Shown here one piece after another: positions 15,441 to 50,000 of a DNA stretch of 64,000 nucleotides (position 1 is its first letter; the number at the start of each line of letters is the position of its first letter). The stretch is from the IMG/VR virus record IMGVR_UViG_3300045988_107225; one strand, given 5' to 3'. Below the pieces are notes generated by a model. It worked only from the letters and a program-made list of their open reading frames with translations, did no database searches and was not told the DNA's origin. Origin of the DNA: a virus. The position numbers were made by a program, and so were the translations under genes.

Positions 15441-16103
15441 ATGAATAATTTTGTAATAGATACTCCAGATAATTTCTGGCAAATAAGATGGCTTGACAAG
15501 TATATGGAAGGTCACAAAGGGTTCATAGCTGGTGGATGTTTTAAGAATATCCTTTCCGGAGAAAAGGTAAAAGATATTGATATTTTCTTTGAAAGCGAAA
15601 GCGATTTTCAGGAAGCTGTTGATTTGTTCAATGATGAAAAACATCAGAAAGAAGGATGGAAATTTAAGTATAGGAATGAGAAGGTATGCGCATTCCAGAA
15701 AGAGGGAGAAAAGGTATGGGTAGAGTTCATAGAGTCAGAGTTCGGAAAGCCAGAAGAGATTCTCAGGAGCTTCGACTTTACTGTGGCAAAAATGGCCTAC
15801 TATAAGGAGCCTAAATACGAAGAAAAGGAAGATGATTATTTTCCATTCTCATCTGCAAGTATAGTAGCATACGAGTACAAACTACTCTATCATGAGAAAT
15901 TCTTCGAACATCTTCATATGAAGAGGCTGGTTATTGACGAAAATATCCCTTTTCCAGTAAGTACATGGGAAAGGTCATATAAGTATAAGGGGTATGGTTA
16001 CAATATGTGTAGGGAGACAAAGAAAAAACTTCTACAGGCTCTTAAAGGTGTAAATGTAGAGGAGGAAGATGTATCTTTGTACACTACTGGAGGATGGGAT
16101 TAA
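15441..16103 (+). CDS. Pol-beta superfamily nucleotidyltransferase, CCA-adding/poly(A)-polymerase-like head domain
   Basis: IAGGCFKNILSGEKVKDIDIFF matches the class II CCA-enzyme GGxVRDxLLG-x3-KDIDI motif; FDFTVAKMA matches motif B RRDFTINAMA. Confidence 0.6.
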   Translation: MNNFVIDTPDNFWQIRWLDKYMEGHKGFIAGGCFKNILSGEKVKDIDIFFESESDFQEAVDLFNDEKHQKEGWKFKYRNEKVCAFQKEGEKVWVEFIESEFGKPEEILRSFDFTVAKMAYYKEPKYEEKEDDYFPFSSASIVAYEYKLLYHEKFFEHLHMKRLVIDENIPFPVSTWERSYKYKGYGYNMCRETKKKLLQALKGVNVEEEDVSLYTTGGWD

Positions 16104-16561
16104 CCTATAAAACAAAATTGCTTATGAAAACATTAGAACAACTTAAAGAATTAACATCAAAATGTTTAGACGGTAGAGATTTTAACAGACTGGCTAAATT
16201 TATCCCATATAACATGATAAAGGATTTCGGTATGGAGCCGAACGAAGAATACAATAACGAAGAAAGGTGGAACAGTACTGTAGTTGAATTTACCAGGGAG
16301 AATGTTTTGAAACAGCTTGAAGAAGATGTAAGATTCGGTTTTGAAAAGGCATTAAATCAGAGAGGAATATCAGCCAGTTTAATGTTTGAATGTGTAATGA
16401 TGTGGAACTACATCCTGGAAGAAGGTCTTGAAGACTGGGATGAGGATGATTATGGATTTTACGGGCTACCTCTATTTAAAGCTACGGCTGTAAAATACGG
16501 ATGGGATAATCCTATAGGGGAAGACAGCGGGAGAGAAAGAAAATATGATTCACAGTATTAA
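16094..16561 (+). CDS. hypothetical protein (155 aa)
   Basis: ORF track. Confidence 0.5.
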   Translation: MGLTYKTKLLMKTLEQLKELTSKCLDGRDFNRLAKFIPYNMIKDFGMEPNEEYNNEERWNSTVVEFTRENVLKQLEEDVRFGFEKALNQRGISASLMFECVMMWNYILEEGLEDWDEDDYGFYGLPLFKATAVKYGWDNPIGEDSGRERKYDSQY

Positions 16562-16572
16562 ATGGGCATATC

Positions 16573-17427
16573 ATGAGCACAAGTAAAGAATACAGGGCAG
16601 TAAGGAACTGTATATTAAATGAACTTCACCTTACCAAAGAAGATATAATCAAAAACATAGAGCCGTTATTGGAGAAACACGTAAAACGGTACATGGTTAA
16701 TACATATGGAGGTGACAACCAGATAGAAAACTGGATCAGATGCATGGTGAATGATGAACTCAAACGAAGAGATCATGATTTTGTAAGAAAAGCGTGCGAG
16801 AGCGTCATCAGGAATCATGTATTAAATGAGTTGAATATAATCGTAAGATCCAAAAGTGAGAAATGTACATGTGAAAACAGAGTACCATCCGAAGAGGATA
16901 AGAAAGAGTCAACTGACGGACTGTATATAATCTACAAAGACGGACATGCAGAGCCGTTTACCGGCGATAACTCCAAAGATTGTGTACGATACATTGGGTT
17001 GAAGCACAGATACATGTCATTTGCAATCTCACTGACGGAGCATGATATCATACAATTGCTTGACGATGATAGCCGTGAAGAATCCGGAAGTGGGACATAT
17101 TACGAACGTGAATGTGATGCGCTGTTTGACATTGACGGACGCGGCAATACGGAACGCCTTGTAACCAGAAATCCAAAATTGAGAAATCTGCTGGAAGATG
17201 GCGAGTATATACCATCTCTTGGTCAATTAAATTTAATGGCCCATTATATGGACGAACTAAACAAAGCATTCACTTATGTTTCGGCATCTCCCCTCTCCTC
17301 GACGTGGTATTGGTCCAGTACTGAGAGCAGCCAGGCCGTCGCGTGGTACGTGGTCTTTTCCAGTGGCCTCACGGGCACCGGCAACAAGCACATCGGAGAC
17401 ATGGTTCGGGCGGTAATTGATTTTTAA
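16573..17427 (+). CDS. DUF1566 / C-type-lectin-like protein with DGR-type variable C-terminus
   Basis: C-terminus GEYIPSLGQL ... WYWSSTESSQAVAWYVVFSSGLTGTGNKHIGDMVRAVIDF follows the DUF1566/FGE-like target pattern (WRLPT ... YWSST ... AWYVxF..G ... VRCV); this segment is GC- and GC3-rich and A-poor. Confidence 0.6.
   Translation: MSTSKEYRAVRNCILNELHLTKEDIIKNIEPLLEKHVKRYMVNTYGGDNQIENWIRCMVNDELKRRDHDFVRKACESVIRNHVLNELNIIVRSKSEKCTCENRVPSEEDKKESTDGLYIIYKDGHAEPFTGDNSKDCVRYIGLKHRYMSFAISLTEHDIIQLLDDDSREESGSGTYYERECDALFDIDGRGNTERLVTRNPKLRNLLEDGEYIPSLGQLNLMAHYMDELNKAFTYVSASPLSSTWYWSSTESSQAVAWYVVFSSGLTGTGNKHIGDMVRAVIDF
17281..17418 (+). other. candidate DGR variable region (VR) at the 3' end of gene 16573-17427
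   Basis: Protein pattern YWSSTE ... AWYVxF..G ... VRAV; adenine-poor and GC3-rich unlike the surrounding gene; no TR copy or RT found in the window. Confidence 0.5.
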
Positions 17428-17438
17428 AAAGGATTACA

Positions 17439-18236
17439 ATGATAACATCAGTAAAAATAAAAGACAATACAAAAACTCCTTTTGAATATGCTTCTGACAT
17501 AGAAGCGTTTGAAAATAGTAGAGAATTTATTTTCAAGCCAGGAGTGAATGTGATTGTAGGTAAAAACGGTAGTGGAAAATCAACTTTGCTTAACATCATA
17601 TCAATGTATGCGTTATGTGAGAAATCCATGTGCTCTGAAATACCGATCGAGGCACTGGATTTTCCACCTATATTTGATGATGATGACAAGGTTCTTGATG
17701 GGATTGACATATCATCCGATTATGCAGGGAAAGTATTCCGTTTATTGCCATCGGCGGAGATGAATCGAGATAGTGTATTGAAAAACATCAGCAACTTAGA
17801 TTTGTATGTGAATAATATTAGAAGATCTTATGGAGAGAAAGTGGTGTTATCATTGGAATCACTTTTCAATTTAATGTTCGGTCAAAAGGATTATACGTTT
17901 CCAATACAAGATCTTGTAGAATACAAGAAAAAATCAAATGCGTTTTGGATTAAAAGGATTGATAATCTGTTGAAGTATTATAAAAGAAACCGCATAACAT
18001 TAACAGAAAGCAGTTTTGAATACACGGTTCTCATGGATGAGCCAGACAGGAATCTTGATATTGACAACATAATGCAGATTTACAATGTATTGTCATTTCA
18101 TAAACCACAAACACAAATTATAGCCATAATACACAATCCGGCATTGATTTACAAATTAAGTAAATTAGATTGTGTGAATTTCATAGAGATGACAGAAGGG
18201 TATCTTAATAAAACTTGTACATTTGTGTCTAACTAA
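17439..18236 (+). CDS. ABC-type ATPase (Walker A GKNGSGKST, Walker B VLMDEPDRNLD, H-loop)
   Basis: Motifs read directly; 265 aa, with no obvious nuclease or Toprim partner domain. Confidence 0.65.
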   Translation: MITSVKIKDNTKTPFEYASDIEAFENSREFIFKPGVNVIVGKNGSGKSTLLNIISMYALCEKSMCSEIPIEALDFPPIFDDDDKVLDGIDISSDYAGKVFRLLPSAEMNRDSVLKNISNLDLYVNNIRRSYGEKVVLSLESLFNLMFGQKDYTFPIQDLVEYKKKSNAFWIKRIDNLLKYYKRNRITLTESSFEYTVLMDEPDRNLDIDNIMQIYNVLSFHKPQTQIIAIIHNPALIYKLSKLDCVNFIEMTEGYLNKTCTFVSN

Positions 18237-18247
18237 TTAAAGGCGAG

Positions 18248-18556
18248 ATGAACTGGAAGAAATTCAAAGAGGAAAAACCTCCAGAGGGAGAAGAAGTGTT
18301 GGCCTATCACCCAAGTTGGATAGATGAAGATTTCAACCCAAGAGGTATAAGAATAGGGTTTTGGAATGGAGGGGACGATTTTAAATCGGCTCATTGGTGG
18401 GATTATCAAGATTGTTATATCACAATCTCTCATTGTGATTGTGATGATAATTCGCTTTTCAGTGATAGAATAAAAAACAGCATAGAGCCAGAGTTATGGA
18501 TATCACTTGATGTTGTTACAAATTACTTACCTAACATAAAACAAAATCACTTATAA
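18248..18556 (+). CDS. DUF551-like phage protein (102 aa)
   Basis: N-terminus WKKFKEEKPPEGEEVLAY and HWWDY near the middle resemble the DUF551 pattern (W..V.DRLPE.GE.VLV ... THWMPLP). Confidence 0.45.
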   Translation: MNWKKFKEEKPPEGEEVLAYHPSWIDEDFNPRGIRIGFWNGGDDFKSAHWWDYQDCYITISHCDCDDNSLFSDRIKNSIEPELWISLDVVTNYLPNIKQNHL

Positions 18557-18558
18557 CA

Positions 18559-18942
18559 ATGAGCTATTTTATATTAATGGGAAGAAGAATCCCAAAACAA
18601 GCCATAACAGGCTTCAAGTTCCAAAATGAAACAGATAACATTCGTCCTTTCCTGTCAATCAGGATAAGAGGGAAGGAGGAAATTATACCCTTTAAAGATA
18701 AAAGGGAAATACTGTCCGTGAAAGCGCATCTGTGTTCTGTCTTCTCTGGGTTTGTGAAAATAGGCGACTGGTATCTCAAGATGTCGGAGGTTAAGGAATA
18801 TAAGCCGGTGACTGCCGAAGACATGAACCCCTACATCTTATTCAAAACATCTAAGTTCGGGAACATAAAAGTTCGTTTTCTAAAAGACGAAGATATGGAT
18901 GCCGAATTGTTGGTGTTAGATCAGCTTTTTGATGTAGAATAA
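18559..18942 (+). CDS. hypothetical protein (127 aa)
   Basis: ORF track. Confidence 0.5.
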   Translation: MSYFILMGRRIPKQAITGFKFQNETDNIRPFLSIRIRGKEEIIPFKDKREILSVKAHLCSVFSGFVKIGDWYLKMSEVKEYKPVTAEDMNPYILFKTSKFGNIKVRFLKDEDMDAELLVLDQLFDVE

Positions 18943-18981
18943 ACTATTAATCATCTTTTAAAAATCATAACCTGGAAAGAA

Positions 18982-19218
18982 TTGAAAGACAAAATATCCC
19001 TTATGATGGAAGAAGAGCAACGACAAGAAGTTGCAGTATGGGGAGAAAATATGAATCTAATGAAAGATTGTTCCTTGGAGAAAACAGACGAGGATATGTA
19101 CTACAACTCTGAATGGGATTATACTCGTGAAGAAAGTGAATTGGAACCGGAAGACAAGAATGACCCTGATGTACATAGGGTATATGAAGCAGGAATGCAT
19201 TATATTTATTCGAATTGA
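18982..19218 (+). CDS. hypothetical acidic protein (78 aa)
   Basis: ORF track. Confidence 0.45.
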   Translation: MKDKISLMMEEEQRQEVAVWGENMNLMKDCSLEKTDEDMYYNSEWDYTREESELEPEDKNDPDVHRVYEAGMHYIYSN

Positions 19219-19236
19219 TTTCAAAAAGATCTTATT

Positions 19237-19983
19237 ATGGCAGTATTAACAACACTAAATATAACGGAAAAGAATGATAACAACAGTTTATCTGTAACTG
19301 TTAAAGTGAATATCACCCAAAAAGGAGTGCTTACCACTACTTTATCAAAAGAAGATGTGGATAAGATTCGTTCTTATGGGATCAAATTACCTACAAACAG
19401 ATTAGGTAACGAAGGATATTTCAATAGCACATCATTTTCTGATCTAGTGAGTCAAATCAGGAAAGTTCTGAAGAGATGTTTGAGTTATAAAATAGTAGAA
19501 GAAGTGCCTGTTATTAAGTATCAACTGGAAACGAATTGCACGTTTTCCTATGACAAAAACGGAAATATTGTCCCTAACCCCTCTAAGGAATGGACAGGAG
19601 GCGATGAAGATGGAAAATGGAGAGATGGAACTTCCAGTTTAGATGCCTTAAACACCCAACCTTTCGGTTTTAGTGTTTATGCAAAACCATTTCTAAAAAG
19701 AGTAATTGAATATGGAAATGGAGAGACAAAAGTAGAATACGGCAGGTTAAATACAGAAAAAGGAACTTATGCGCACTGGCTGAATTGTGTAACGAGCATA
19801 TCATACAATAGATATAAACAGGTAATGGAAGTGGAGTGTAACGAATGTACCTCGAAATTATTCGTTGATATGATCAAGTCCATTTGTAATATAAGCGAAC
19901 AAGTTAAGAGTTTTGTCAATCCAGAACAAATAAAAGCAATTGCGGAGTCAAATGAACAGATTTCGCTTTTATCTAACAACTAA
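19237..19983 (+). CDS. hypothetical protein (248 aa)
   Basis: ORF track. Confidence 0.55.
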   Translation: MAVLTTLNITEKNDNNSLSVTVKVNITQKGVLTTTLSKEDVDKIRSYGIKLPTNRLGNEGYFNSTSFSDLVSQIRKVLKRCLSYKIVEEVPVIKYQLETNCTFSYDKNGNIVPNPSKEWTGGDEDGKWRDGTSSLDALNTQPFGFSVYAKPFLKRVIEYGNGETKVEYGRLNTEKGTYAHWLNCVTSISYNRYKQVMEVECNECTSKLFVDMIKSICNISEQVKSFVNPEQIKAIAESNEQISLLSNN

Positions 19984-19989
19984 AAAATC

Positions 19990-20130
19990 ATGAGGTATGT
20001 ATGTGTTTTTATCTGCTTTCTGTTATGGCTTATTTTTACATTGTTATTATCATCAACTGTCATAGGATTGGTTATAAGCGTGAGTGATGAATGGCAGGAA
20101 ATGGGTGACAAAATAATAGATAAACTTTAA
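19990..20130 (+). CDS. small hydrophobic membrane peptide (46 aa)
   Basis: ATG at 19990 and stop at 20128-20130 fill the gap; MRYVCVFICFLLWLIFTLLLSSTVIGLVISV is a single predicted TM helix. Confidence 0.3.
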   Translation: MRYVCVFICFLLWLIFTLLLSSTVIGLVISVSDEWQEMGDKIIDKL

Positions 20131-20136
20131 TAAAAT

Positions 20137-20382
20137 ATGAATAAGAATATAATCAACAACGCTCAACTTTTAGAGATTAAAACTAAGATTAGACAACTTG
20201 GAGCAATGATGAATGCATATCAATGCAGGTTTGTGGTTTCTTCGGGTCAATTGTTTTTTGTGGATGATGAATATGCTGGAACGGTTAAACTGACTAATCT
20301 TGATAATGGAGAATCTAACATATCATTCCCTTCATGTGACGATGGATTGATAATCAATCCAGCCGATAAGCATATTAAATAA
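20137..20382 (+). CDS. hypothetical protein (81 aa)
   Basis: ORF track. Confidence 0.5.
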   Translation: MNKNIINNAQLLEIKTKIRQLGAMMNAYQCRFVVSSGQLFFVDDEYAGTVKLTNLDNGESNISFPSCDDGLIINPADKHIK

Positions 20383-20426
20383 TTTCAAAACTAAAAATAT
20401 TTAAATTAATTAAACAATAATAAGAC

Positions 20427-20693
20427 ATGAAACAAGATATAGAATATGCTGTTCCTCTTTTTAAAGCTGGTGCAGAATGGCGCATTAACAGCGTGTGGCA
20501 TTCTATAACAGTAATTCCAGATTGCCACCGTTTTATTGTGTTTCTCCCTAAGAAATCAACAATAGGATCAAAGAATCCAATTATGGGTATATTGGAAGAG
20601 AACAGAACTTTTATATCCAGCCGTCCAGGATGTATTTTATGCAGATTAGATGAAATGGAATCATGGGCTTATTTGGATGATCTATTACCTTAG
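20427..20693 (+). CDS. hypothetical protein (88 aa)
   Basis: ORF track. Confidence 0.5.
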   Translation: MKQDIEYAVPLFKAGAEWRINSVWHSITVIPDCHRFIVFLPKKSTIGSKNPIMGILEENRTFISSRPGCILCRLDEMESWAYLDDLLP

Positions 20694-20738
20694 GTAATTA
20701 TATACTCAATTAATTATTCATTTTTAAAAGTTAGAGTT

Positions 20739-20891
20739 ATGAGACAAAAAAGGAAAAACACTTCATCCAATTTGGAGAAACAAAAAAAATGTACTGATAA
20801 GTATGAATACATATATTTGCCAAAAGATCCGTTTAAGAAGCATCCTAATAAAAAAGGAGAATGTTATTTAATTCGTAGAGGCGAGGTCTAA
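20739..20891 (+). CDS. small basic Lys-rich protein (50 aa)
   Basis: ATG at 20739 and stop at 20889-20891 in an otherwise unexplained 205-bp gap. Confidence 0.3.
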   Translation: MRQKRKNTSSNLEKQKKCTDKYEYIYLPKDPFKKHPNKKGECYLIRRGEV

Positions 20892-20898
20892 TACCGGA

Positions 20899-21087
20899 AT
20901 GCAAAACGTTTTAGGACTTGACGATCCTAATGATAGATCGGGTACAAAATTAGTAAAAATACTATCCTCTAAAGCTATAAGCGACTGTATTCAAGATGGT
21001 TATTTATCGGTAAAAGATAAGCCATTTCCTTGTTTTAAAGAAAATAGAAGAATGAATAAATTAAGAAGAAAATTTGAAAGGTTATGA
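20899..21087 (+). CDS. hypothetical protein (62 aa)
   Basis: ORF track. Confidence 0.4.
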   Translation: MQNVLGLDDPNDRSGTKLVKILSSKAISDCIQDGYLSVKDKPFPCFKENRRMNKLRRKFERL

Positions 21088-21287
21088 CCGACAGAGAACT
21101 TCTTGAAGAAAACAATAAGATGTTAAAGGAAATCCTAAGTTTTGTGAGAAAAGTCGATTCTGTTGAATATAGGGATCATCATGACTTTATGGAATTTCTT
21201 AGAAATGTGGCAGCCGATATATGGGTGGAATATACGGAGCCTGAACAAAGAGGTAGATTGTTTAATTTAATAAATAAAAAGAAATGA
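21084..21287 (+). CDS. hypothetical protein (67 aa)
   Basis: ORF track; ATGA overlap. Confidence 0.45.
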   Translation: MTDRELLEENNKMLKEILSFVRKVDSVEYRDHHDFMEFLRNVAADIWVEYTEPEQRGRLFNLINKKK

Positions 21288-21952
21288 AAACAGTTTTTGA
21301 TTTAAGCAGAGATGAGATTGTGGCATTGACAGACGAAGAGATAAGTCTGTATATAGACAAAGAGCTTGTTGGTAAGGGTATTCCAATTGAAGCTAAAAAT
21401 TGGAATATAAAGAACGAAAAAGAAGTCGTGTATCCAAGAACTGGAGTTCCAGTATTTATGTTAAAAGATATCGGCATCGGTTTTAGAACCATAGAAGGTG
21501 CAACTGAGGTGGCTAATTTGCTTGTTAAATATAATGCATTTAAAATGGAATCAAAGTTTCTGATAGGATCGTATGAACAGTTTTGGATCATAAATGGAAG
21601 TGTTTGCCCAGCCATTACAGGAGAAGCAGGATATAGCAAAGAAGAGTTTGATAAGGTAAACAAGAAAAACAAAGATCCAGAATTGGAAAGTATAAATTCC
21701 TTCAATGATACTGTGAAAAAAGCCAATGAAATCAAAGACATGGTATTGGAATACGTGGACAAGATAAAACGGGAGCGTGCGTACAACATCGACCTTTGCA
21801 TGACTTTCGAGAGATATGTTGAGATAGCAGATAAAGATGCGGAGCGGGCTATGGCTTTCTTGAAAGAAGTCTACCCGTTTAATGAAGAAACAGAAGTCTT
21901 TATCAGGAAAAGATACAATATGTCTATCGGTGTTGACCCAGAAGAAAATTAA
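21284..21952 (+). CDS. hypothetical protein (222 aa)
   Basis: ORF track. Confidence 0.55.
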   Translation: MKTVFDLSRDEIVALTDEEISLYIDKELVGKGIPIEAKNWNIKNEKEVVYPRTGVPVFMLKDIGIGFRTIEGATEVANLLVKYNAFKMESKFLIGSYEQFWIINGSVCPAITGEAGYSKEEFDKVNKKNKDPELESINSFNDTVKKANEIKDMVLEYVDKIKRERAYNIDLCMTFERYVEIADKDAERAMAFLKEVYPFNEETEVFIRKRYNMSIGVDPEEN

Positions 21953-21995
21953 TTTACATTAAATCATTTTGTTTCTTATTAAGCAACAAAAGACA

Positions 21996-22003
21996 TATCT
22001 TTG
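21996..22003 (+). promoter_or_regulatory. TAnnTTTG motif (TATCTTTG) 17 nt upstream of the ATG at 22021
   Basis: Read directly in the 68-bp gap. Confidence 0.25.
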
Positions 22004-22020
22004 TCCGAAAAGTAAGAAAC

Positions 22021-22281
22021 ATGAAAGAGGAAGAAAAAAAGATTAAAGAGGCTATGGCTGAAGCCCTGATACATTTAGAAGGTTGCAAATATTTTGTGGT
22101 CACGATAGTAAACGAAGAAGAATGTAGGTTTGATATGAGTCAGCGTATGTCTCCTCGTCAACTGGCTTTGGTTATAAAAGGTGTATTATCAAATAATAAT
22201 ATGATGATGATGGATGTACTACAATGGTGCTCAGCCAGGCTTCAAACAGAAATAGAAAAAGGAAAGAAATCAACTAATTAA
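22021..22281 (+). CDS. hypothetical protein (86 aa)
   Basis: ORF track; TAtcTTTG motif 17 nt upstream. Confidence 0.5.
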   Translation: MKEEEKKIKEAMAEALIHLEGCKYFVVTIVNEEECRFDMSQRMSPRQLALVIKGVLSNNNMMMMDVLQWCSARLQTEIEKGKKSTN

Positions 22282-22292
22282 ATATTAATACA

Positions 22293-22763
22293 ATGAATAG
22301 ATGGTTTGAAATTACGGTAAAAGCCGAGATTGATAATATCGAGAACGGCAAAAAAAAGAAAGTAACTGAAAAGTATTTAGTGGATGCCTTGTCTTATACA
22401 GAGGCAGAATCAAGATCGTTGGAGATCTTCAAGGATTTGTACAATTCTTTCGAGGTTGTAAAAATTAATCCTATTAAAGTGTCGGAAATCTTCTTCAACG
22501 GAGAAGCTGAGTACTGGTATAAGTGTAAGGTAAATTACATTACACTGGATGAAAAGAAAGGTAAAGAAAAGAAAACTCCATGCTATATGTATATCCAGGC
22601 CGGCAATCCTAAGGATGCCGAAGCTGTGTTGACTAAAGGTATGCAGGGTACGTTAGGAGACTGGAATTGCGAGTCTATTGTGGAAACGAAAATCATTGAA
22701 GTGTTTAAATACGATCTTCAGAAGGGAGCTGAAAAATTAGGCGAGAAGAAGAGTGAAGAGTAA
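22293..22763 (+). CDS. hypothetical protein (156 aa), possibly the Bacteroidota DUF4494-like family
   Basis: ORF track; N-terminus WFEITVKAEIDNIENGKKKKVTEKYLVDALSYTEAE resembles a Bacteroidota-restricted family as I recall it. Confidence 0.5.
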   Translation: MNRWFEITVKAEIDNIENGKKKKVTEKYLVDALSYTEAESRSLEIFKDLYNSFEVVKINPIKVSEIFFNGEAEYWYKCKVNYITLDEKKGKEKKTPCYMYIQAGNPKDAEAVLTKGMQGTLGDWNCESIVETKIIEVFKYDLQKGAEKLGEKKSEE

Positions 22764-22992
22764 GGCTGATGTAGTTTCCAACATAGCGCTTGTTGTGGCG
22801 ATAATATCATTGCTTTCAGCAGGCGCTTTCCTTCTGATAGTGATTAAGACAGACGAGGTATCTAAATTATTAATGAACGTACCTTATCTACTGGCTTCAG
22901 CGGGATTATTCTTTTCAATAATATCATTATTATTCGAATGGAAAGCAAGGAAAAGAAGCTATACGTCTGCGAAAAATGCGGACGAAAAGTGA
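22753..22992 (+). CDS. small two-TM membrane protein (79 aa)
   Basis: Two hydrophobic helices (VVSNIALVVAIISLLSAGAFLLIVI; LLASAGLFFSIISLLF). Confidence 0.5.
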   Translation: MKSKADVVSNIALVVAIISLLSAGAFLLIVIKTDEVSKLLMNVPYLLASAGLFFSIISLLFEWKARKRSYTSAKNADEK

Positions 22993-23462
22993 TGATAAGA
23001 AGTCATGGCTTATGCCAGGCTTGCAGGAGCAAAGAGTTGACTCCGAAGAAAAAAAACAGAATTACATCCATTAAAAACAGCAGCAAGAAGAAAAAGTTAG
23101 AGAACCCGGATTTATCCGGGTTTTTTCGTCTTATGTTGGAGGAGTTGAGTACTATTCGAATGTCTATGACTGGTAAAGCTATTCATTTTCCTACAGTATG
23201 TAACGTCTGTCACATACTTCCGAAAAGGTTATATAAGTCGGTTGCCACTTGCAGGGATAATATAGTTTTCCTTCATGAATCAGAGCATACGGTATTCGAC
23301 ATGTATCTTGACCGGATGGAATTTGATAAACTTGAAACAGAATTTCCTTTTGTGTGGAAGTATGCGGTAAAGAAGGTGCTGGATATGGAAAGCAGGGGAA
23401 TGATTAAAGAAAGAGGTAGATTAATTATTGAAATAATTGACAGATATGAGAAAACTTTATAA
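22938..23462 (+). CDS. zinc-ribbon protein with possible HNH-like motif (174 aa)
   Basis: N-terminal CEKCG ... CQACR; later CNVCHILPK ... DNIVFLHESEH resembles H..P ... N ... H of His-Me finger nucleases (weak). Confidence 0.45.
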   Translation: MESKEKKLYVCEKCGRKVMIRSHGLCQACRSKELTPKKKNRITSIKNSSKKKKLENPDLSGFFRLMLEELSTIRMSMTGKAIHFPTVCNVCHILPKRLYKSVATCRDNIVFLHESEHTVFDMYLDRMEFDKLETEFPFVWKYAVKKVLDMESRGMIKERGRLIIEIIDRYEKTL

Positions 23463-23622
23463 AATAAGAATAGAAGCTGACGATGAAACTATCTTTTATG
23501 CTCACATACAGAGAGAAAGTTATGGTAAGGATATAGCTATCGCAGTGAAAGATAGAGATAAAGATGAAGTGGAAACAGTGTTACATTGTATTAAAGAAGA
23601 ATTGATTAGAGGAAGATCATGA
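23437..23622 (+). CDS. hypothetical protein (61 aa)
   Basis: ORF track. Confidence 0.4.
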   Translation: MTDMRKLYKIRIEADDETIFYAHIQRESYGKDIAIAVKDRDKDEVETVLHCIKEELIRGRS

Positions 23623-24935
23623 AAGAGAAAATAAAAATATTGACAGATTTAGGATTTGTCCCTATGGTGGAAGGAGAAGGAAATACGTTGTTTAGAATGA
23701 ACGATGTTGTGATGTCGGTGTCAGATCCTAACCAAACACCAGAGCAGTTGAAGAAGGAGGTTATGTCTTTAATAAAGAACAGAGACATAGCAGAAAGAGG
23801 CGGACAGGTTCCAGTAGTTGAAGAGCCGGCGCCTGAGACAGAGCAGGCCCAGAAGGAGGAACCGGAAGCTCCGGCGGAGGAAGCCGCTCCTAACCCTGGA
23901 GAAGAGGATTCGAATCCGTTTACAGAAAATCAGGAAACGTTAGAACCGTTTTATATCTGTGATGAGTTAAAGAAGATTGAGACTCCCAAATTCGTAAGAT
24001 TGACATTAGACGGTAATCGTTTTTATGTAAGAAAGATGGACGATGGGACAGCCAAGATATATGCTTCGGTAACAACCATGATCAGAGACGGATTCGTAGA
24101 TGACAAGACGGCTCTTCAAGAATGGAGACAGGAGATGAGGATGATTGGTCGCAACCCGGAAGAAGTATCAGAATATGATGCAGATAAAGGAACGATCATG
24201 CACTACCTATACGGATTGTACTTGACGGGTAGAGATATGGTCTTAAATCGAAGTTTTATAGTTAAGACAGTGCAAGAAGGCAAGCTTAAAATATCAAAAA
24301 AGAATCTTGACAAATTCTTTGGTAGCATAGATGATCTTGACGATATGATTGTCAGAGTTATGAAGTTTGCTAAGTTTTGTTCGGAGTATAAGGTTAAGCC
24401 GATGATGATTGAAAGAATATTGTCATTAGAAGATTATTTGGTAGCTACGCCGATAGATGCGATGGTTAAAATGACATTCAAATACAAAGAAGAAGGTTAT
24501 TTTGGAGCTGTGTATCAAAGGGCTACGGGGCGGTTCAAAAAAGGAGATCCGAAGAAGGAAGTAAGAGAAGTGGAGAAAGAAGAGATTGTTATCTTAGATT
24601 TTAAATCAGGTGACATACGAAATGAACATGCTTTTCAATTGGAGGCTGAAAGGAGAATGGTTAAAAACTGGTACGGAATTGATGCACGTATTATGAATTT
24701 TTCTCCAAAAAGCACGAACAGTAAAGGTTATACGCTAAAAGAATGGTCTGATAAAAATGCTGCTATGGAGAAAGCGGACTGTGTGTTCCAACAAGGGATG
24801 TTGAATCATATCAGAAAAGATAAGAGGTTTAAAGTGAGAAAAGGAGTGCTGAATATCAATAAGCCGTACAATGAAGAGGATCATATTGTCGTATATGATA
24901 TTGCTGAGGAAATGTCTAAAAGATTCGTAATCTAA
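23619..24935 (+). CDS. hypothetical protein (438 aa) with P/A/E-rich linker and possible C-terminal PD-(D/E)xK nuclease fold
   Basis: IVILDFKSGD resembles the RecB-family hhhDYKTG motif; the linker PAPETEQAQKEEPEAPAEEAAPNPGEE is GC-rich. Confidence 0.55.
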   Translation: MKEKIKILTDLGFVPMVEGEGNTLFRMNDVVMSVSDPNQTPEQLKKEVMSLIKNRDIAERGGQVPVVEEPAPETEQAQKEEPEAPAEEAAPNPGEEDSNPFTENQETLEPFYICDELKKIETPKFVRLTLDGNRFYVRKMDDGTAKIYASVTTMIRDGFVDDKTALQEWRQEMRMIGRNPEEVSEYDADKGTIMHYLYGLYLTGRDMVLNRSFIVKTVQEGKLKISKKNLDKFFGSIDDLDDMIVRVMKFAKFCSEYKVKPMMIERILSLEDYLVATPIDAMVKMTFKYKEEGYFGAVYQRATGRFKKGDPKKEVREVEKEEIVILDFKSGDIRNEHAFQLEAERRMVKNWYGIDARIMNFSPKSTNSKGYTLKEWSDKNAAMEKADCVFQQGMLNHIRKDKRFKVRKGVLNINKPYNEEDHIVVYDIAEEMSKRFVI

Positions 24936-44076: not shown

Positions 44077-47000
44077 CTATTTGTAACTAACGTCATCGTC
44101 TCCTTCCGAATCAGGAGTAGCGCCGATGAAGAACATCATTGACTTGTTGTTTGTCTGCTGCCACCAATTATAGGCGCGCGCTACGTCTTCCGGCGTCTTG
44201 ATATTATACCATTGTTTGATAAACGTCTGTTTGGCGAGTTGCCTAAATAGCTTAGACTCTCCTTTGTATGTACCGGATGTTACTTTATCAAGTGAATAAT
44301 TCCTAAGATCGGTAAGATCCTTCAGCTTCCTTCCCATAACAAACGGGTCGTTAATGATATCTACAACGTTAAGCTCCATAATAAACGGCATCTGTGAAGC
44401 TATTTCGTTTATGGTTCTGAATCCAACGTAAGATCCAAATTGAGTAAGCCAACTTTCTTCGTTTTCATCATCATCACGCCATCCGGCAAGAAGCATGGAT
44501 ACGGCTTGCATGATAAGGAACGTGCCGGCATAGACACTGAGGCGTTTGAGATTAGTTTTTTCTACCTCATTCATATTGTCTTTATTTTCGTTCCAGGCAT
44601 CTATGATGTTTTTCATACCAGACTCGGAAGCCAGGCTAAATGTTTTGGCTATCATATTCTTTAACGTAATTGACAACCCTTCCTCTTCTTGCATTGTTTG
44701 GAAATTGAAGCCACGTCTTTTCCACAGACGTTGAGCCGCCAGCACCAACCATCCTCGGTGGGCGGTCATGAACCTGGCTATCCAGTTGCGCGATGCGGCA
44801 GTTCGGTTTTCTTCATTCAAAGATCCGTTACATATCTGCGACAAGCTACGGACTTGATTCCTGGTTATAGCCATCTGGGTTTCAACTTCCTCAACAGTAA
44901 CACCCGATCCTGGCTTTACAACCACCTTCCCATCCACGACGTCTACCATACTCCATAAAGTACGATCTTTTAATGCATTCCATTCTCTTTTTATGGTACT
45001 CTGTTCTTTATTGCGTTCTTTTTCCATCTTGAAATCTTGGAACGTGTAGAACCGACCTTTGTAATAACGAACATTGTCCATAGTAGCAATCATAACCTGC
45101 GGATCAAGAGGGTAGTTCAGGATTTCCATAAAAGCATACATAGGTGAACGCATTAAGGTCCTGGCCACTCTATTGTATCCGGCACCATACATACGATTTC
45201 GGATATTGAATATCCCCATTCTCTCACCTATGACATATAATTTGCTTTTCCTATCTATGTCTCCGGTTTCTGCTATACAAGATGGAGCAAGGCGTGAAAA
45301 TTCAGCCGATGCGTATTTAAGGGAATCTTTACTTATATACTGTCCTACGGCAGATTCCATGATGAGGTTGATATGACCTGTTAAGGCGCCGGTAGCTGCC
45401 ACAAACGGGGACAGTGCCAAGTTCATGACCGACATAAATCTTTCAACAGCCATCATAATTCTTGTAAGGTCTACCGTATATCCTCCGATGTTCACCGTAA
45501 GTTTTTTGGTGTTCATCCTAATGCCATAATAATGATCGTTGAAGAAGTCCCTGAACATCTGATATGCTTGGGTTGCTTCAGCCTTCTTACCGCCTTCAAA
45601 TTGTTTGTTCAGCAACATCTGCTCCAGTCCTTGAGCGAGCTCTATAGACTTCTGCTTTTCGTTATATAACGATGACTGCATCATAAGCATAGAATAAGAG
45701 TAGCCAAAATCGTGAGATACATCATCTTGGTTCTCCAATTCATATATGTAGTATTTGGGTATAGACCTAAGTCTGTCTTCCGGATCATATACCTCCCCTT
45801 GTCTGGTTTTACCGTATAAAGAATCGTCTACTCTGTCCAGGCACAGATCTGATACAAAATTACGAACCGTATTTTTGAAGTTAATACCCAATCCTTCTAT
45901 ACGTTCTATATCTTGTTTTGATATCTGTGGAATAGCATACAGGTTCGGGCTCTGCTCTTTGTATAGATCAAGGGATTGTCTTTTTATTTCCTTGAGTTTT
46001 TGAATCATATTCCACTGCTCTACGTTTTTAGTAGCAACTTCATTACCGTCAGCATCATACTTGATACCAAAGTCATTGAAATACGATTCATCACGATACA
46101 GGCTTTTCTTAGGCATGCGATGACCATACCCATGATCTTTTACATAATCAGGATTACGGCCGCTATTTTCGGCTTCAGATTCAGCCACCCATGCCCTTGC
46201 AGGATCGAAAGACAGGTACGATATGTCCATGCCATAATCTTGGGTGGATGTACCGTTTTGTACGTCCTTAACCATCTGCGCCACATCTATCTCACCTCGA
46301 CCTATTTTGTCGATCATGGCCGCATATCCGGTAGGCGCCATGCGTTTATAGTACGAAAAGACCTGGATCCTGGCAAATTCATTAACAATAGCATTGGTCT
46401 CTTCTATGCCCTCTTCTCTTGTATTATTTAAAAACAAGCTGGCCATCTTAGCATTAACAGCATTCCTGAAATCTCTACCGTCTAATTCTTTGCTTATACC
46501 AAGCTTTTCTGACAGGTAGTTGGTTTCAGATACGGTAAACAGATATCGGTTATCAGCAGCCTTAAACAGCTTATCCCTTAAAGCCTGAATCCTTTTTGCT
46601 TTCTTCGCCGTAGTATGACGTTGTACGAACTTCCATTCCACTTCCTTGGAGTCAGCAAGAGCATTTAAATAAGACTGATTTACTTCGTTTTCGGCCTTAC
46701 TGCTTTTAGTAAGGTACTTATCAATATCTTCAAGACCCACCATCTTAGCATAATCTATTAAGATAGCGTAATCAGCTTCAATAGCTTCAGATGCGGCCCT
46801 AAAAGCATCTCTTTCAGATGAGGTAAATGTCGCTTCGTTAATTTCTCCGATATCAGCCACATCTCGGTTGTTTCCGATTATTTCCTTGATAATGGCCTTA
46901 TTTTTTTCTATATCTTTCACAATCGAATCCACGTCAGTCGCATCTCTATCACTTGTCGTAGAACTAATGATATCATGCGCCATTTTAAGATACGAAGCCT

Positions 47001-50000
47001 TGTTATTTGATTCGGTACGCGCCGACTGTTCCGATTCTACTTCATTCCAAAACCGATCATTGAACGACAGGTGACCTCCCAACATAAGTGTCTTCAGCGC
47101 AGCTTCTCCTCCCGACTCGCTCTGAATCGTTCTTAATTTTTGCAAAAACGATTCTGATACGGCATTGGTAACATTATTTGATTCCTTTCTCCAAACTTCA
47201 TTTATAGCTTGTATTTCTTTAGCCATCTTAAGTTGGTCGCCGGTTTTTTCCACTCTCCTGGTTCCTACATATATGTATTCTGAAGCTGCTTCCTTACGTT
47301 GTTTACGAAGCAGTCCTTCTTCTTCGTAATTGCTGCTTTTAAAATAGGCAACCTCATCAAAATTACCACCGCTATCAATAAAAGGTTGCCTCAATATCCG
47401 CTTCTGCCGAGAAAGAGCATTAAGGTATTCTTTGGTTGTTTGAGAAACCGGATGCCCTAATTCTTCTTCAGCCTTTTTGTATATGGATTCCATTCTTGTG
47501 GCATAACTTTCGCTAAATTCCAGTTCCGAATTTTCAGCATCCCATTTTTCCATCTGTTCCGTATAGATTTTTTCCTGTTCGATAGTAAAAATATCGGTAT
47601 TAACCCTATCGGACGACGGTTTAAATTTAGCGTTTTCAGTAACCGTATTTCCATCCTTGTCAACTACTTCTCTTTTAAATACGTAATTACGGTTATTGTC
47701 AACCACATCACCAATTTCTTCTTCTGATATCTCTATGTTCATGGCAGTCGCAAACGCTCGCATCTGCGCCAGCTTCTTATTACGATCGTATTTAGCCATA
47801 TCAAGAGCACTACGAAGGTAATTAGAAGTTTTGCCGTCTACTTTCTGAAGCAGTTTTTCAAATTCAGATTTGTTAAAACCATGCTTTTTAGCATATGCCA
47901 GGAAGTCGGATATGGCGGGCTGGGCATTCACCATCGCATTGTAATTGTCTTTGGCAATCATAGCTCCAAGAGCGTTATTGAACGGACTGGAAGAATGCTC
48001 TAATATACCAAACCACCTACTTATCCAAGAAACATCGTGTTGAACCTTGTCGAAAAATTCTTTTACTCTCTTTACCTTATCTGCCGGCACATGAAGTTCG
48101 TTCATTAACTTATCAAGCAACGTACTTTCATCAAGGTCTTGTACTGATTTAATATCAGACTGAATACCATTGATGTCGGCAATGACGGTATTGATCCTAT
48201 TTGTATAATCCTGCTTTTCACGTTCATCAAATTCGGTACTTCTGTTACGGATATATCCTCGAAGATCGTTCATGATCGGAAGAACCTGATTGTTGATAAT
48301 ATCTACGTTCTTTCGATCATTGGTATTGAAGTGAAGCTTACCGTCTTTGGTATCACCATGAAGGATGGTGTTCACCACATTGCTTAAGTATCTGACCTGA
48401 GCTTCGGCTGTGGAGATCATGCTGTTCATGGCAGCCGCCATCTCATTCTTGTCTATTTCGGTCTCTACCTTATTTATCTTATCTTCTATGGTCTTAAGCT
48501 GAGCAAGGGTCATAGACGTAGTTACAGCCCTATCAGAGCTTATCTGACGTAAGTCTCTTAATGTTTTTCTTAGCGATCTGATCTTAGACTCAAGAAACTT
48601 GTTCTTGTTCATAGAAGAAAGGGAGTATAATGTAAAGTCATTATCCTTTAACAGAGAGGTGTCAAATCCTTTATCTATGTCAGTAATGGCAAGATCACGA
48701 ATGCTTTTAATAACGTTATTCAAATCTTGTCTTTGGGTTGATAAAGCTGATTTAAGCCAGCTTACGATTCCAGAGAAAAGCTGCCGGACGCGCCCCAGGA
48801 AGGAGGTGGGCTCTACCGGCGCCTGTGCTGTGCCGGTCTGCATCTCCCTGGCGAGGATCTTTCCAAGAATTTCTCTCCTAACGGCATTATCAAGCTCAGA
48901 TCCTTCATATACCTTACCGTATGTATTATAATACTGACCTGCATACTGGTTCCACTCTTCCGTACCTTCTACATCTTGCAGAACAGCCTCAACAGCATTC
49001 TGATCTCTGTATGCCTCTACAAGGAAGTGGGCTGTTTCTTCTACTAAATCGGATAAAGTAGCATCTTCACCAACTGCTATTACGTTATTGGCAATATCCG
49101 CCAATGCCTTAGCAGAAGGTTCGTGCCCGTATTTGGTTTGGTACTTCTCTATATAGTCGGTCATACCTATGACACTAACGCCAAGCGTTTTCAGTATCTC
49201 GACAATAGAATTTCGTTGGTCACGTTCCTGCCTGCTATAATCTGATACGATCTTAGCTTTAGTATCAGCATAAAGATCGTTATCTTCTAATATGAATGAA
49301 ACTACAAGCGCATCAAAATGATCGTACTTGGCGTCCAATTCATTGTATCTTCCTGACTTAAGATCGTTCTTTATCTGTTCCCTACTAACCCTTTCCGTTC
49401 CTCCGGTGGCGAGTCTCATAGTTACCTTACTGTTATCCAACGAGCTTATGGTTATCATACCTTGGTCGTTCATGGAAACATCGGAACCAAAATGATTACG
49501 GAGCTCGGTGTATGATAAGGCTGAATTGAAAAGTCTAATTTGTCCTGTATAACCTTCTCCTGTAAGATAATAGCTTCTTGTTTCAGAATCGAATATCTTA
49601 GATCCTGACAAAAGACCTTTCTTTATAAGGTAGTTAATTATCCCGCCTTTTGTTGATAAAGAAGTAGAAGCAGAAGCGGTCATGACCGGTATAAAAGACT
49701 TGGGATTATTAAGAACATACTTTCCAGCTTTGTAAGTAATGTCTGCCACGCCATCCACGGTAGATTCTTGAACGGTTCCTGATAAGAATCCTATTCTAAT
49801 ATCATTCCCGCCAGAGCGAAGAGCTTCTCCGTAATCTTCAAATAATTGACTACGATCGTTCATGAAAAACAAACGAGGCTCTCCAGTCTGATACGTTACA
49901 CCCACAGGATTAGAATCTGTTTCTGGTAGCTCTTCTGGGCTAAATATCTTAAGACCGTCTTTTATAACCATATAATTAACACCCTTATCCTGTACCACAG

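What the first reader, a model, noticed from the sequence alone, without database searches (positions are those of the whole stretch)
17281..17418. C-terminal DUF1566/C-type-lectin-like variable region with the signature of a diversity-generating retroelement target
The last 45 residues of gene 16573-17427 (WYWSSTESSQAVAWYVVFSSGLTGTGNKHIGDMVRAV) follow the canonical DGR target pattern (YWSST ... AW.V.F..G ... VRCV), preceded by a WRLPT-like YIPSLGQL segment. The stretch is adenine-depleted and GC3-rich while the rest of the gene is AT-rich. That is what adenine-specific mutagenic retrohoming from a template repeat produces. No reverse transcriptase (no YxDD-containing ORF) and no near-identical TR copy are visible in the 64 kb. 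So either the RT/avd/TR cassette lies elsewhere in the genome and acts in trans on a remote target, or this is a fossil VR. The target sits in the early arm among small proteins, next to an ABC ATPase, not in a tail-fibre gene, which is unusual.
Basis: partly seen in the sequence, partly recalled or inferred. Interest (0 to 1): 0.75.

Follow-up and report, generated by a model that had tools for sequence, protein, structure and literature searches.

The report
Orphaned DGR variable region, crAss-like phage
The GC-rich tail of this small early gene of an epsilon crAss-like gut phage is a real target site of a diversity-generating retroelement, but its matching template and reverse transcriptase were found only in another phage lineage, and here the site is cut off from its homing signals and carries a very common, apparently frozen allele.

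Summary
Window 17282-17419 is the most GC-rich 138-nt stretch in the 64 kb, is adenine-poor, and encodes a DUF1566/Lcl_C-type C-terminus. It is a genuine DGR variable region (VR). Across 120 orthologous proteins and 118 orthologous loci, variation is confined to codon positions 1 and 2 of about 15 codons between invariant scaffold residues.

I predicted the template from that pattern and found it (TR2) at the 5' end of a DGR reverse transcriptase in other large gut-phage contigs. Against TR2, the window VR differs at 17 of 36 template adenines and 6 of 83 other bases (p=1.6e-6).

No cognate template was found in the window, in the complete 94-97% identical genome csAssE-Sib, or in any crAss-like IMG/VR contig. 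The lineage's own DGR uses an unrelated template for its receptor-binding protein.

The VR lies in a 498-nt target module shared with other phages. In this lineage, homology ends after a 12-13 nt IMH core, so the IMH extension and downstream hairpin are missing. The window allele is the dominant one (84 of 118 loci) and has 6 non-adenine mismatches, against 0-1 in working pairs.

Best reading: an orphan, currently static VR. Ten other allele families and a 3'-only rewritten variant show it was rewritten episodically, possibly in trans. The fold test failed (pLDDT 47).

The parts
16573..17427 (+). Gene for a 284-aa protein: a lineage-specific N-terminal part joined to a C-terminal DUF1566/Lcl_C-type DGR target domain.
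   Evidence: ORF. Pfam Lcl_C at residues 242-281. phrog_4245 at residues 161-282. Ortholog WOZ57377.1 in csAssE-Sib.
16573..16916 (+). N-terminal part (about 115 aa), specific to epsilon crAss-like phages and predicted helical at low confidence.
   Evidence: It has no counterpart in the 40 non-crAss loci, whose homology starts at 16917 or 16882. It is about 80% identical to csAssE-Sib, whereas the C-terminal part is about 99.8% identical. AF2 secondary structure at low confidence.
16917..17414 (+). A 498-nt mobile 'target module', the whole ligand-binding domain including the VR, shared at 77-95% nt identity with other gut-phage lineages.
   Evidence: About 40 loci (L208-L261) match the window only over 16917-17414. 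The 214-aa homologue L251:5551-6195 is 77% aa-identical over residues 93-284.
17296..17414 (+). Variable region (VR): 119 nt homologous to template repeat TR2 of other phage contigs.
   Evidence: Alignment to the TRs of L203-L206. There are 23 mismatches to the L204 TR, 17 of them at template adenines and all of those in codon positions 1 or 2.
17326..17402 (+). Hypervariable codons 252, 255, 256, 259, 261, 264, 266, 268-271, 273, 274, 276 and 277 (AAY or AAG in the template), between an invariant scaffold (W258, F262, G265, K272).
   Evidence: Per-column entropy in 120 orthologs. Per-nucleotide counts in 47 distinct DNA alleles.
17403..17414 (+). GGTTCGGGCGGT: the retained GC-rich core of the IMH (initiation of mutagenic homing). 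It is the last stretch shared with TR2 and with working VRs.
   Evidence: Flank comparison of about 55 VR and TR copies. All homology to TR2 and to type-B targets ends at 17414.
17415..17480 (+). Junction. The IMH extension (GGCAGCAT) and the 10-bp-stem, 4-nt-loop hairpin found after working VRs are absent, replaced by AATTGATTTTTAA and the next gene's start.
   Evidence: Flanks. DNA folding gives -2.3 kcal/mol for the window (no better than shuffles), against a stable hairpin in L297 and L204 (centroid -9.7 and -9.1 kcal/mol).
17415..21084 (+). The 'type A' alternative block (AAA/SMC-like ATPase at 17439-18236 plus small ORFs). An otherwise collinear relative has a PcfK/PcfJ block at the same place.
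   Evidence: L297 against the window. Pfam hits for the ATPase.

Best explanation
Window 17296-17414 is a genuine DGR variable region of the CLec2/DUF1566 class. It forms the last ~40 codons of a small early-region protein of an Epsilonunovirus (epsilon crAss-like) gut phage.

Its sequence was written by adenine-mutagenic retrohoming from a template of the TR2 family. TR2 has AAC or AAG codons at about 15 positions. I found that template, fused to its reverse transcriptase (RT2), only in a different lineage of large gut phages ('phage X'). There it serves a ~1100-2000-aa protein next to the cassette and also a 214-aa homologue of this gene.

The 498-nt target domain is a module exchanged between these phages. 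In the window's lineage the module ends exactly at the GC-rich IMH core. The IMH extension and the downstream hairpin have been replaced by an ATPase block.

In this genome the VR is therefore an orphan. There is no cognate template. The resident DGR, seen in relatives and outside the window, uses an unrelated template for the receptor-binding protein. The allele is the dominant, essentially fixed one and has drifted at non-adenine positions.

Shown:
- the DGR-type variation pattern;
- the existence and sequence of TR2 and RT2;
- absence of a cognate TR from the window and from a complete close relative;
- the truncated cis signals;
- the dominance of this allele.

Inferred:
- the site is now static in this genome;
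- the other allele families on the same truncated backbone arose by occasional rewriting, either in trans during co-infection with a TR2-bearing phage or before a cassette was lost;
- the protein is a ligand binder, with ligand unknown.
For: (1) Variation pattern. In 120 orthologs, mean entropy is 0.84 bits for residues 237-284, against 0.25 for residues 121-236. Seven to nine residue types occur at discrete positions. At the DNA level, 3-4 bases occur at codon positions 1 and 2 while third positions stay fixed.

(2) Template found by prediction. A TR predicted from that pattern was recovered by an exact scan of IMG/VR in L203-L206. It lies in the 5' end of a 496-aa RVT_1 ORF. That RT's nearest known relatives are DGR RTs of Bacteroides phages BS-TP1 (49%) and F1/F2/F4 (36-39%), and BPP-1 Brt (27%).

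(3) Adenine bias. Against the L204 TR, the window VR differs at 17 of 36 A sites and 6 of 83 non-A sites (Fisher p=1.6e-6). The cis pairs in L204 show 10 A / 1 non-A and 14 A / 0 non-A mismatches.

(4) No cognate TR nearby:
- none in the window;
- none in the full csAssE-Sib genome;
- none within 10 kb of the gene in 118 loci;
- none within 6 kb of the crAss RT in 80 loci;
- none in a crAss-like contig in three whole-collection scans.

(5) The csAssE-Sib DGR template is unrelated.

(6) Cis signals. All working VRs share GGCAGCAT plus a hairpin after the core. The window has neither.

(7) Allele frequency. The window-type allele is in 84 of 118 loci and in 55 of 70 extra cluster members, and one cluster has 1790 members. 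As a positive control, the Bacuni_F1 remote target family has 120 distinct VRs in 120 representatives, at about 3 bits per variable site.
Against: At least 11 allele families, and more than 20 at the protein level, all carry the truncated ...RAVIDF* junction. So the VR has been rewritten after the truncation, or alleles were imported through a 12-nt crossover.

One variant (L056/L068, P0132/P0158) is the window allele with only its 3'-most ~14 nt reset to template-like TAC AAC AGT GAC AGG. This looks like a partial 3'-to-5' homing event on this very backbone.

Non-window alleles sit on flanks only 0.3-0.5% diverged from window-type genomes, so the changes are recent.

The remaining ~90 kb of the source genome was not available. 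Absence of a TR is inferred from a 94-97% identical complete genome and from collection scans that need exact pattern matches.

The fold could not be confirmed: both AF2 models have pLDDT of about 47.
Confidence: 0.68

Rival explanations
1. The VR is still a live target, rewritten in trans. When this crAss-like phage co-infects a cell with a TR2/RT2-bearing phage, that phage's RT, accessory protein and TR-RNA home into the crAss VR. They would use only the 12-13 nt GC core, at low efficiency, and this would produce the observed allele series.
For: avd-TR-brt supplied in trans is functional in the BPP-1 system (Wu et al. 2018, PMC5758913).

The two phage lineages exchange DNA at 92-97% nt identity: the module, the PcfK/PcfJ block and small patches. 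They must therefore meet in the same cells.

Every allele's template-derived information ends inside GGTTCGGGCGGT, which is where DGR cDNA integration is expected.

The 3'-only rewritten variant has a unique 'KYNSDRV' ending. VR divergence is 20.6%, against 2.2% and 5.2% in the flanks.
Against: Alleles are stable across many independent assemblies and far less diverse than the Bacuni_F1 control.

The hairpin and IMH extension conserved in every working target are missing.

Alleles carry 2-9 non-A mismatches to the sampled TRs. Clear allele-by-allele recombinants exist (P0033, P0109), so recombination alone can shuffle alleles.

No TR2-bearing prophage was found in 185,579 representative bacterial genomes.
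Confidence: 0.2
2. The VR is an ordinary remote target of a cassette in the same genome. A cognate TR/RT would lie in the ~90 kb of the source genome outside the window.
For: Relatives of this phage do carry a DGR outside the region covered by the window. DGRs in phages can act on targets tens of kb away (PMC5758913). In contigs L204 and L316 a TR2 cassette lies about 9 kb from a homologue of this gene.
Against: The complete genome of csAssE-Sib, with an identical VR apart from one synonymous change, has no second copy at blastn word size 11, E<=10.

Its TR encodes ARFGGNANNGNCSPRNLNANN..., which is unrelated.

None of more than 200 crAss-like IMG/VR contigs appears among the TR hits of three scans. 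The six non-A mismatches argue against a currently matching template.
Confidence: 0.07
3. The region is not DGR-related. It would be a conventional DUF1566 domain whose GC-rich, A-poor tail reflects foreign origin or codon usage, with ordinary positive selection causing the variability.
For: The Pfam match is sub-threshold. The module is more GC-rich than the backbone even outside the VR (0.43 against 0.36), which suggests horizontal origin.
Against: A template with adenines at exactly the variable positions exists next to a DGR RT. Variation is limited to codon positions 1 and 2 of AAY-type codons. The Fisher test gives p=1.6e-6.
Confidence: 0.02

Closest known systems
Remote (secondary) DGR target of Bacteroides uniformis phages Bacuni_F1/F2/F4 (QMS42043.1, 'putative fimbrial tip protein (DUF1566)'; Hedzet et al. 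2021, PMC8143477)
   Same: It is a small protein (224 aa against 284 aa) that is 33% identical over residues 79-284. The VR covers the last ~35-40 codons with the same WYWSSTE...AW...G...K...VR motif. The gene lies in the replication/early module, not among the tail genes.
   Different: In Bacuni phages the cognate TR, Avd and RT are in the same 40-kb genome, and the VR is different in every sampled genome (120 of 120). Here no cognate TR is present, the cis signals are truncated, and one allele dominates.
Category 'd' / CLec2 DGR targets (DUF1566, DUF823, Fib_succ_major; type example Legionella LdtA; Wu et al. 2018, PMC5758913)
   Same: The VR overlaps a weak DUF1566/Lcl_C match. The target is short and consists mainly of that domain. 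The variable codons are of the AAY type.
   Different: LdtA and the Bacteroides pilus-tip targets are surface lipoproteins or pilins of bacteria. This is a phage early-region protein with a phage-specific N-terminal part. I did not test for a signal peptide or lipobox.
The resident DGR of crAssE-Sib / Epsilonunovirus (Viruses 2024;16:513, PMC11054128)
   Same: It belongs to the same phage lineage and is also a CLec-type target with a C-terminal VR.
   Different: That DGR has an unrelated TR/VR sequence, targets the receptor-binding protein, and has an RT with a GxxxSP motif. The paper does not mention the gene studied here, which GenBank labels 'DUF3988 domain-containing protein'.
BPP-1 DGR target recognition (IMH with a GC-rich element plus a downstream hairpin/cruciform)
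   Same: Working TR2-family targets show the same logic. A GC-rich core is shared with the TR, followed by a target-specific extension and a GC hairpin with a 4-nt loop about 31 nt downstream.
   Different: The window keeps only the 12-13 nt core. That such elements are required in BPP-1 is my own recollection of the literature (Guo et al. 2008, 2011). I did not check it here, and it has not been tested for this DGR clade.

Membership tests
DGR variable region (target of mutagenic retrohoming) | A template repeat exists whose differences from the VR fall on template adenines. | tested here: met
   TR2 in L203-L206. There are 17 mismatches at 36 A sites against 6 at 83 non-A sites, p=1.6e-6. 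However, 6 non-A mismatches is more than the 0-1 seen in working pairs.
DGR variable region (target of mutagenic retrohoming) | The cognate TR and a DGR-clade RT are present in the same genome. | tested here: not met
   The window has no RT and no TR. The complete relative csAssE-Sib has only an unrelated TR1/RT1. The rest of the source genome was not available.
DGR variable region (target of mutagenic retrohoming) | Variable positions correspond to AAY codons, with codon positions 1 and 2 varying and position 3 fixed. | tested here: met
   47 DNA alleles. All 17 A-site changes in the window allele are in codon positions 1 or 2.
DGR variable region (target of mutagenic retrohoming) | IMH at the 3' end of the VR and a downstream hairpin/cruciform. 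| tested here: not met
   Only GGTTCGGGCGGT is retained. The GGCAGCAT extension and the hairpin, conserved in about 40 working targets, are absent.
DGR variable region (target of mutagenic retrohoming) | Hypervariability among closely related genomes. | tested here: inconclusive
   At family level it is met: 11 allele families, with the VR 20.6% diverged against 2-5% for the flanks. For this allele it is not: 84 of 118 loci, 55 of 70 cluster members, and only ordinary point variants. Within-sample read data were not available.
Pfam PF07603 Lcl_C (formerly DUF1566) | Score at or above the gathering threshold (34.9 bits). | tested here: not met
   21.8-22.6 bits, covering only profile positions 75-116 of 117. 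53 of 54 aligned relatives hit at E<0.01. Several orthologs carry a precomputed PF07603 hit. The adjacent-cassette target in L204 scores 39.4 bits.
C-type-lectin (CLec) fold of DGR variable proteins | A three-dimensional fold with the VR on a solvent-exposed binding face. | tested here: inconclusive
   Two AlphaFold2 runs gave mean pLDDT of 46.9 and 46.8, and the VR itself is below 50 in most of its length. No fold search was justified. The only weak sequence links to solved chains are 8q4e (E=0.018) and 4eps (E=0.023).

The most novel reading that the evidence does not exclude
A crAss-like phage keeps, in an early gene, a stripped-down DGR target that has no template of its own. The target is occasionally rewritten by the retroelement of a different, co-infecting phage. 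This would be inter-viral, trans-acting mutagenic retrohoming that needs only a 12-13 nt GC-rich core and no hairpin. The breakpoint of the neighbouring gene-block swap, exactly at the IMH core, could itself be a by-product of aberrant homing.
Probability: 0.2. Interest if true: 0.75.

Novelty: new member of a known kind. Interest (0 to 1): 0.5.

Why it matters
The result shows that DGR target domains move between gut phages as self-contained ~500-nt modules. They can end up in genomes that lack the matching template.

This bears on DGR surveys that pair TR and VR within one contig. Such surveys miss these sites, and the published description of the closest genome did not report this one.

The site also provides a natural test case for the minimal cis requirements of retrohoming. 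The same module exists with and without the IMH extension and hairpin on otherwise collinear genomes.

It is also a concrete candidate for cross-phage diversification.

Finally, it adds a third phage group in which a small DUF1566 protein encoded among early or replication genes is a DGR target, rather than a tail fibre. The ligand of this protein class is unknown.

Tried and rejected
- Search for a TR in the window (blastn, word size 7): none.
- Search in the complete csAssE-Sib genome: none.
- Search within 10 kb of the gene in 118 loci: none.
- Search within 6 kb of the crAss-type RT in 80 loci: none.
- The annotated csAssE-Sib TR as a possible template: unrelated sequence.
- A broader scan for ...GNTNNNNK...-type templates. 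It found only other DGR families with 7-28 non-A mismatches, none on a crAss backbone.
- Scan of 185,579 bacterial and archaeal genomes for the IMH junction. It gave 13 chance matches and no VR or TR, so no prophage source or host link.
- AlphaFold2 on the full protein with 25 orthologs, and on the C-terminal domain with 54 sequences from two subfamilies. Both gave pLDDT of about 47, so I ran no fold search.
- A literature search for the PDB match 'HbP1': uninformative.
- Possible chimerism of contig L204 (crAss-like genes next to the TR2 cassette). The cassette-to-PcfJ/PcfK part is reproduced in the independent 95-kb contig behind L316. The L204 copy of the target gene is not present in L316.
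- Identity of 'phage X' from PHROGs. Only generic replication genes and an unknown-function giant target were named, so its taxonomy is unresolved.

Full report
**1. The observation**

Gene 16573-17427 (+) is an intact 284-aa ORF. Window 17282-17419 has the highest GC content of any 138-nt stretch in the 64 kb: 0.61 against 0.376 overall. Its adenine fraction is 0.174 against 0.336, which falls in the lowest 0.5% of such stretches.

Pfam Lcl_C (PF07603, formerly DUF1566) matches residues 242-281 at E=2.4e-4, below the gathering score. The window contains no second copy of the stretch. It contains no reverse transcriptase detectable with two DGR RT queries.

**2. Source of the window**

The window is 92-98% identical at the nucleotide level, segment by segment, to phage csAssE-Sib. 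This is OR575929.1, 151,256 bp, complete, from human gut. The paper calls it crAssE-Sib and assigns it to the proposed genus Epsilonunovirus. The window corresponds to about 147.7 to 86.6 kb of that record on the reverse strand.

The ortholog is WOZ57377.1, annotated 'DUF3988 domain-containing protein'. The two genes differ by about 20% in the N-terminal third. Over the last 480 nt they are identical except for one synonymous change, and that stretch includes the whole putative VR. Taken alone, this argued against hypervariability.

csAssE-Sib has an annotated DGR about 90 kb away: the VR in the receptor-binding protein at 45751-45846, the TR at 46215-46310, and the RT at 46419-47816. Its TR encodes ARFGGNANNGNCSPRNLNANNATSNTNRNNCGLA and has no similarity to the stretch studied here. 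A blastn search at word size 11 and E<=10 finds only the gene itself in that record. The paper describing this genome discusses only the RBP cassette (PMC11054128).

**3. Population evidence**

A search of 5.8 billion proteins returned 603 homologues. The best 120 are orthologs at 80-99% identity. Per-column entropy averages 0.84 bits for residues 237-284, against 0.25 for residues 121-236 and 0.40 for residues 1-120.

Positions 252, 255, 256, 259, 261, 264, 266, 268-271 and 273-276 show mostly 6-9 residue types (3-5 at 264, 273 and 275), drawn from N, Y, S, D, G, H, C, F, I, V, A, T. The scaffold residues W258, F262, G265, K272, V278 and R279 stay invariant or nearly so.

In 118 orthologous IMG/VR loci there are 47 distinct DNA alleles of window 17250-17430 (39 distinct over the 119-nt VR). 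Variation is confined to codon positions 1 and 2 of those codons, with 3-4 bases each. Third positions stay C, or occasionally T. This is the AAY signature of adenine mutagenesis. From it I inferred a template peptide of roughly WYWSSTENSQNNAWYVNFSNGNTNNNNKYNSN(K/R)VRAV.

**4. The template**

An exact scan of IMG/VR with the predicted template gave five contigs (pattern GAGAAYAGCCAGAAYAAYGCRTGGNAYGTGAAYTTY). Four of them (L203-L206) carry the predicted TR almost to the base. This TR2 is embedded in the 5' end of a 496-aa ORF with an RVT_1 domain, which I call RT2.

RT2's nearest known relatives are DGR RTs: Bacteroides phage BS-TP1 at 49%, B. uniformis phages F1/F2/F4 at 36-39%, and BPP-1 Brt at 27%.

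About 730 nt upstream, across a 154-aa ORF with no Pfam hit (an Avd-like position, which is inference only), lies a cognate VR. It sits at the C-terminus of a 1135-1996-aa protein that scores 39.4 bits for Lcl_C.

A second VR lies in a 214-aa protein that is 77% identical to residues 93-284 of the window protein. In L204 the two cis VRs differ from their TR at 10 A and 1 non-A sites, and at 14 A and 0 non-A sites. The window VR differs from the same TR at 17 of 36 A sites (10 to G, 4 to T, 3 to C, all in codon positions 1 or 2) and at 6 of 83 non-A sites. Fisher p=1.6e-6.

The window sequence is therefore a product of this template family. It has since acquired changes that a working TR-VR pair does not show.

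**5. A mobile target module, truncated here**

About 40 further IMG/VR loci that are not crAss-like match the window only over 16917-17414, or from 16882 in a few cases, at 77-95% nt identity.

In all of them the VR is followed by GGCAGCAT, which is shared with TR2. Then comes TCACTTTTAA (the stop codon), and about 31 nt further a hairpin GGTGCGCTCC-TTTT-GGAGCGTGCC. Its centroid energy is -9.7 and -9.1 kcal/mol.

In the window and in the other 117 'type A' crAss-like loci, homology stops after GGTTCGGGCGGT (17414). The sequence continues AATTGATTTTTAA with no hairpin: -2.3 kcal/mol, no better than shuffled sequence.

An otherwise collinear Epsilonunovirus-like genome is 'type B' (L297, 154.6 kb). 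Its gene ends ...RAVAAFTFKL*, it has the extension and the hairpin, and it is followed by a PcfK/PcfJ block. That block replaces window 17415-21084, which is the ATPase block. The left breakpoint of this block swap is the last base of the IMH core.

**6. Where a cognate template is not found**

- No TR2-like copy lies within 10 kb of the gene in 118 loci.
- None lies within 6 kb of the crAss-type RT in 80 loci.
- No crAss-like contig appears among the TR hits of three whole-collection scans.
- A scan of one genome per species for 185,579 bacterial and archaeal species gave only chance 20-mer matches.
- A metagenome scan for the TR2-RT2 junction found six contigs of 1.8-167 kb. L316 reproduces the L204 arrangement from the cassette to the PcfJ/PcfK genes, so that part of L204 is not an assembly chimera. 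L316 lacks the L204 copy of the target gene, so the cassette's link to that gene in L204 rests on one 13.5-kb contig.

The carrier, 'phage X', is otherwise unrelated to the crAss backbone apart from a few genes. It does share several stretches at 92-97% nt identity with it. This implies that the two lineages recombine, and therefore co-infect.

**7. Static or live?**

For a static site:
- The window-type allele family is in 84 of 118 loci.
- The exact allele is in 55 of 70 additional cluster members, and one 90% cluster has 1790 members.
- Its variants are ordinary point changes.
- As a positive control, the Bacuni_F1 remote target, which has a cis DGR, shows 120 distinct VRs in 120 representatives at about 3 bits per variable site. 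The window family shows 46 distinct VRs in 104 representatives at about 2 bits.
- The cis signals are missing (section 5).

Against a purely static history:
- Ten further allele families in the IMG/VR loci, and more than 20 alleles at the protein level, all carry the truncated RAVIDF* junction.
- In pairs with different alleles the VR is 20.6% diverged, against 2.2% upstream and 5.2% downstream.
- Non-window alleles occur on 1.1-kb flanks only 0.3-0.5% diverged from window-type genomes.
- Different alleles carry scaffold markers of different TR variants.
- One variant (L056/L068, P0132/P0158) is the window allele with only its 3'-most ~14 nt reset to TAC AAC AGT GAC AGG. This restores three non-A positions to the template state and changes one A site. 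The resulting ending, KYNSDRV, is seen in no other allele. It has the polarity expected of a partial homing event.
- Recombinant alleles also exist (P0033, P0109), and both module subtypes occur with both junction types. Recombination is clearly part of the picture.

**8. Conclusion**

The stretch is a real DGR VR of the CLec2/DUF1566 class (Wu et al. 2018 category 'd'). It lies in a protein family whose homologue in Bacuni phages is a published remote DGR target in the replication module.

In this genome it is best described as an orphan. It has no cognate template, its homing signals are truncated, it carries the dominant allele, and it shows non-adenine drift.

The allele series on the same truncated backbone shows that rewriting has happened since the truncation. 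I cannot decide whether this was by a TR2 cassette supplied in trans by a co-infecting phage, by a cassette since lost, or by short-patch recombination. I give the trans reading about 0.2.

The fold could not be tested: AF2 gave pLDDT of about 47 twice. Membership in the Lcl_C family is sub-threshold for this protein, although relatives pass.

Noticed in passing
window 17415-21084; L297 10843-14347: This is an alternative gene block. The window has an AAA/SMC-like ATPase (17439-18236) plus about 8 small ORFs. An otherwise collinear 154.6-kb relative has PcfK/PcfJ and other genes instead. The left breakpoint is exactly the last base of the DGR IMH core (17414).
   Followed up: partly
window 15441-16103: The upstream gene is a nucleotidyltransferase (phrog_4400, weak PolyA_pol). 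Its ortholog in L297 carries a precomputed Pfam hit to PF26128 'Gad2'. By my recollection this is a phage anti-Gabija protein family, which would hint that this early region is an anti-defence neighbourhood.
   Followed up: no
L001 6838-7180 (csAssE-Sib), corresponding to window 17428-17438: csAssE-Sib has a ~330-nt insertion with a 73-aa ORF between this gene and the ATPase gene. The window lacks it.
   Followed up: no
window 16573-16950 versus 16950-17427: The gene is mosaic relative to csAssE-Sib. The N-terminal third is about 80% identical, with an 18-nt indel. The C-terminal 480 nt differ by one base. This suggests recent homogenisation or replacement of the target module.
   Followed up: partly
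L038 and L232 (IMG/VR contig 3300029745_000341, 172,858 bp): One over-length contig holds both a type-A copy with the window allele and a type-B VR with the full IMH and hairpin. It may be two strains joined in assembly, or a genome with two copies.
   Followed up: no
L312 (Bacuni_F1 21060-24695); L251 5551-8759; window 15441-18236: In three unrelated phage groups the small DUF1566 DGR target sits among replication or early genes (polA/methyltransferase; replication initiator/PcfK/PcfJ/methylase; nucleotidyltransferase/ATPase). It does not sit among tail genes.
   Followed up: partly
P0002-P0008, P0028, P0090, P0094 (orthologs of 16573-17427): Some assemblies yield 300-465-aa products covering this protein at 94-99% identity. 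These are presumably fusions with the upstream ORF (16094-16561) through a frameshift or a start-codon call. Some carry the precomputed PF26128 hit.
   Followed up: no
P0121 (NCBI WP_288877790.1): A member of the same 90% cluster as the closest ortholog, P0001, is deposited as 'hypothetical protein [uncultured Dialister sp.]'. This is probably a binning artefact rather than a host assignment.
   Followed up: no
L204 9590-10054 (-), L318 9867-10328 (+): A conserved 154-aa ORF lies between the cassette-adjacent VR and TR2, in the position of the DGR accessory protein Avd. It has no Pfam or PHROG match.
   Followed up: partly
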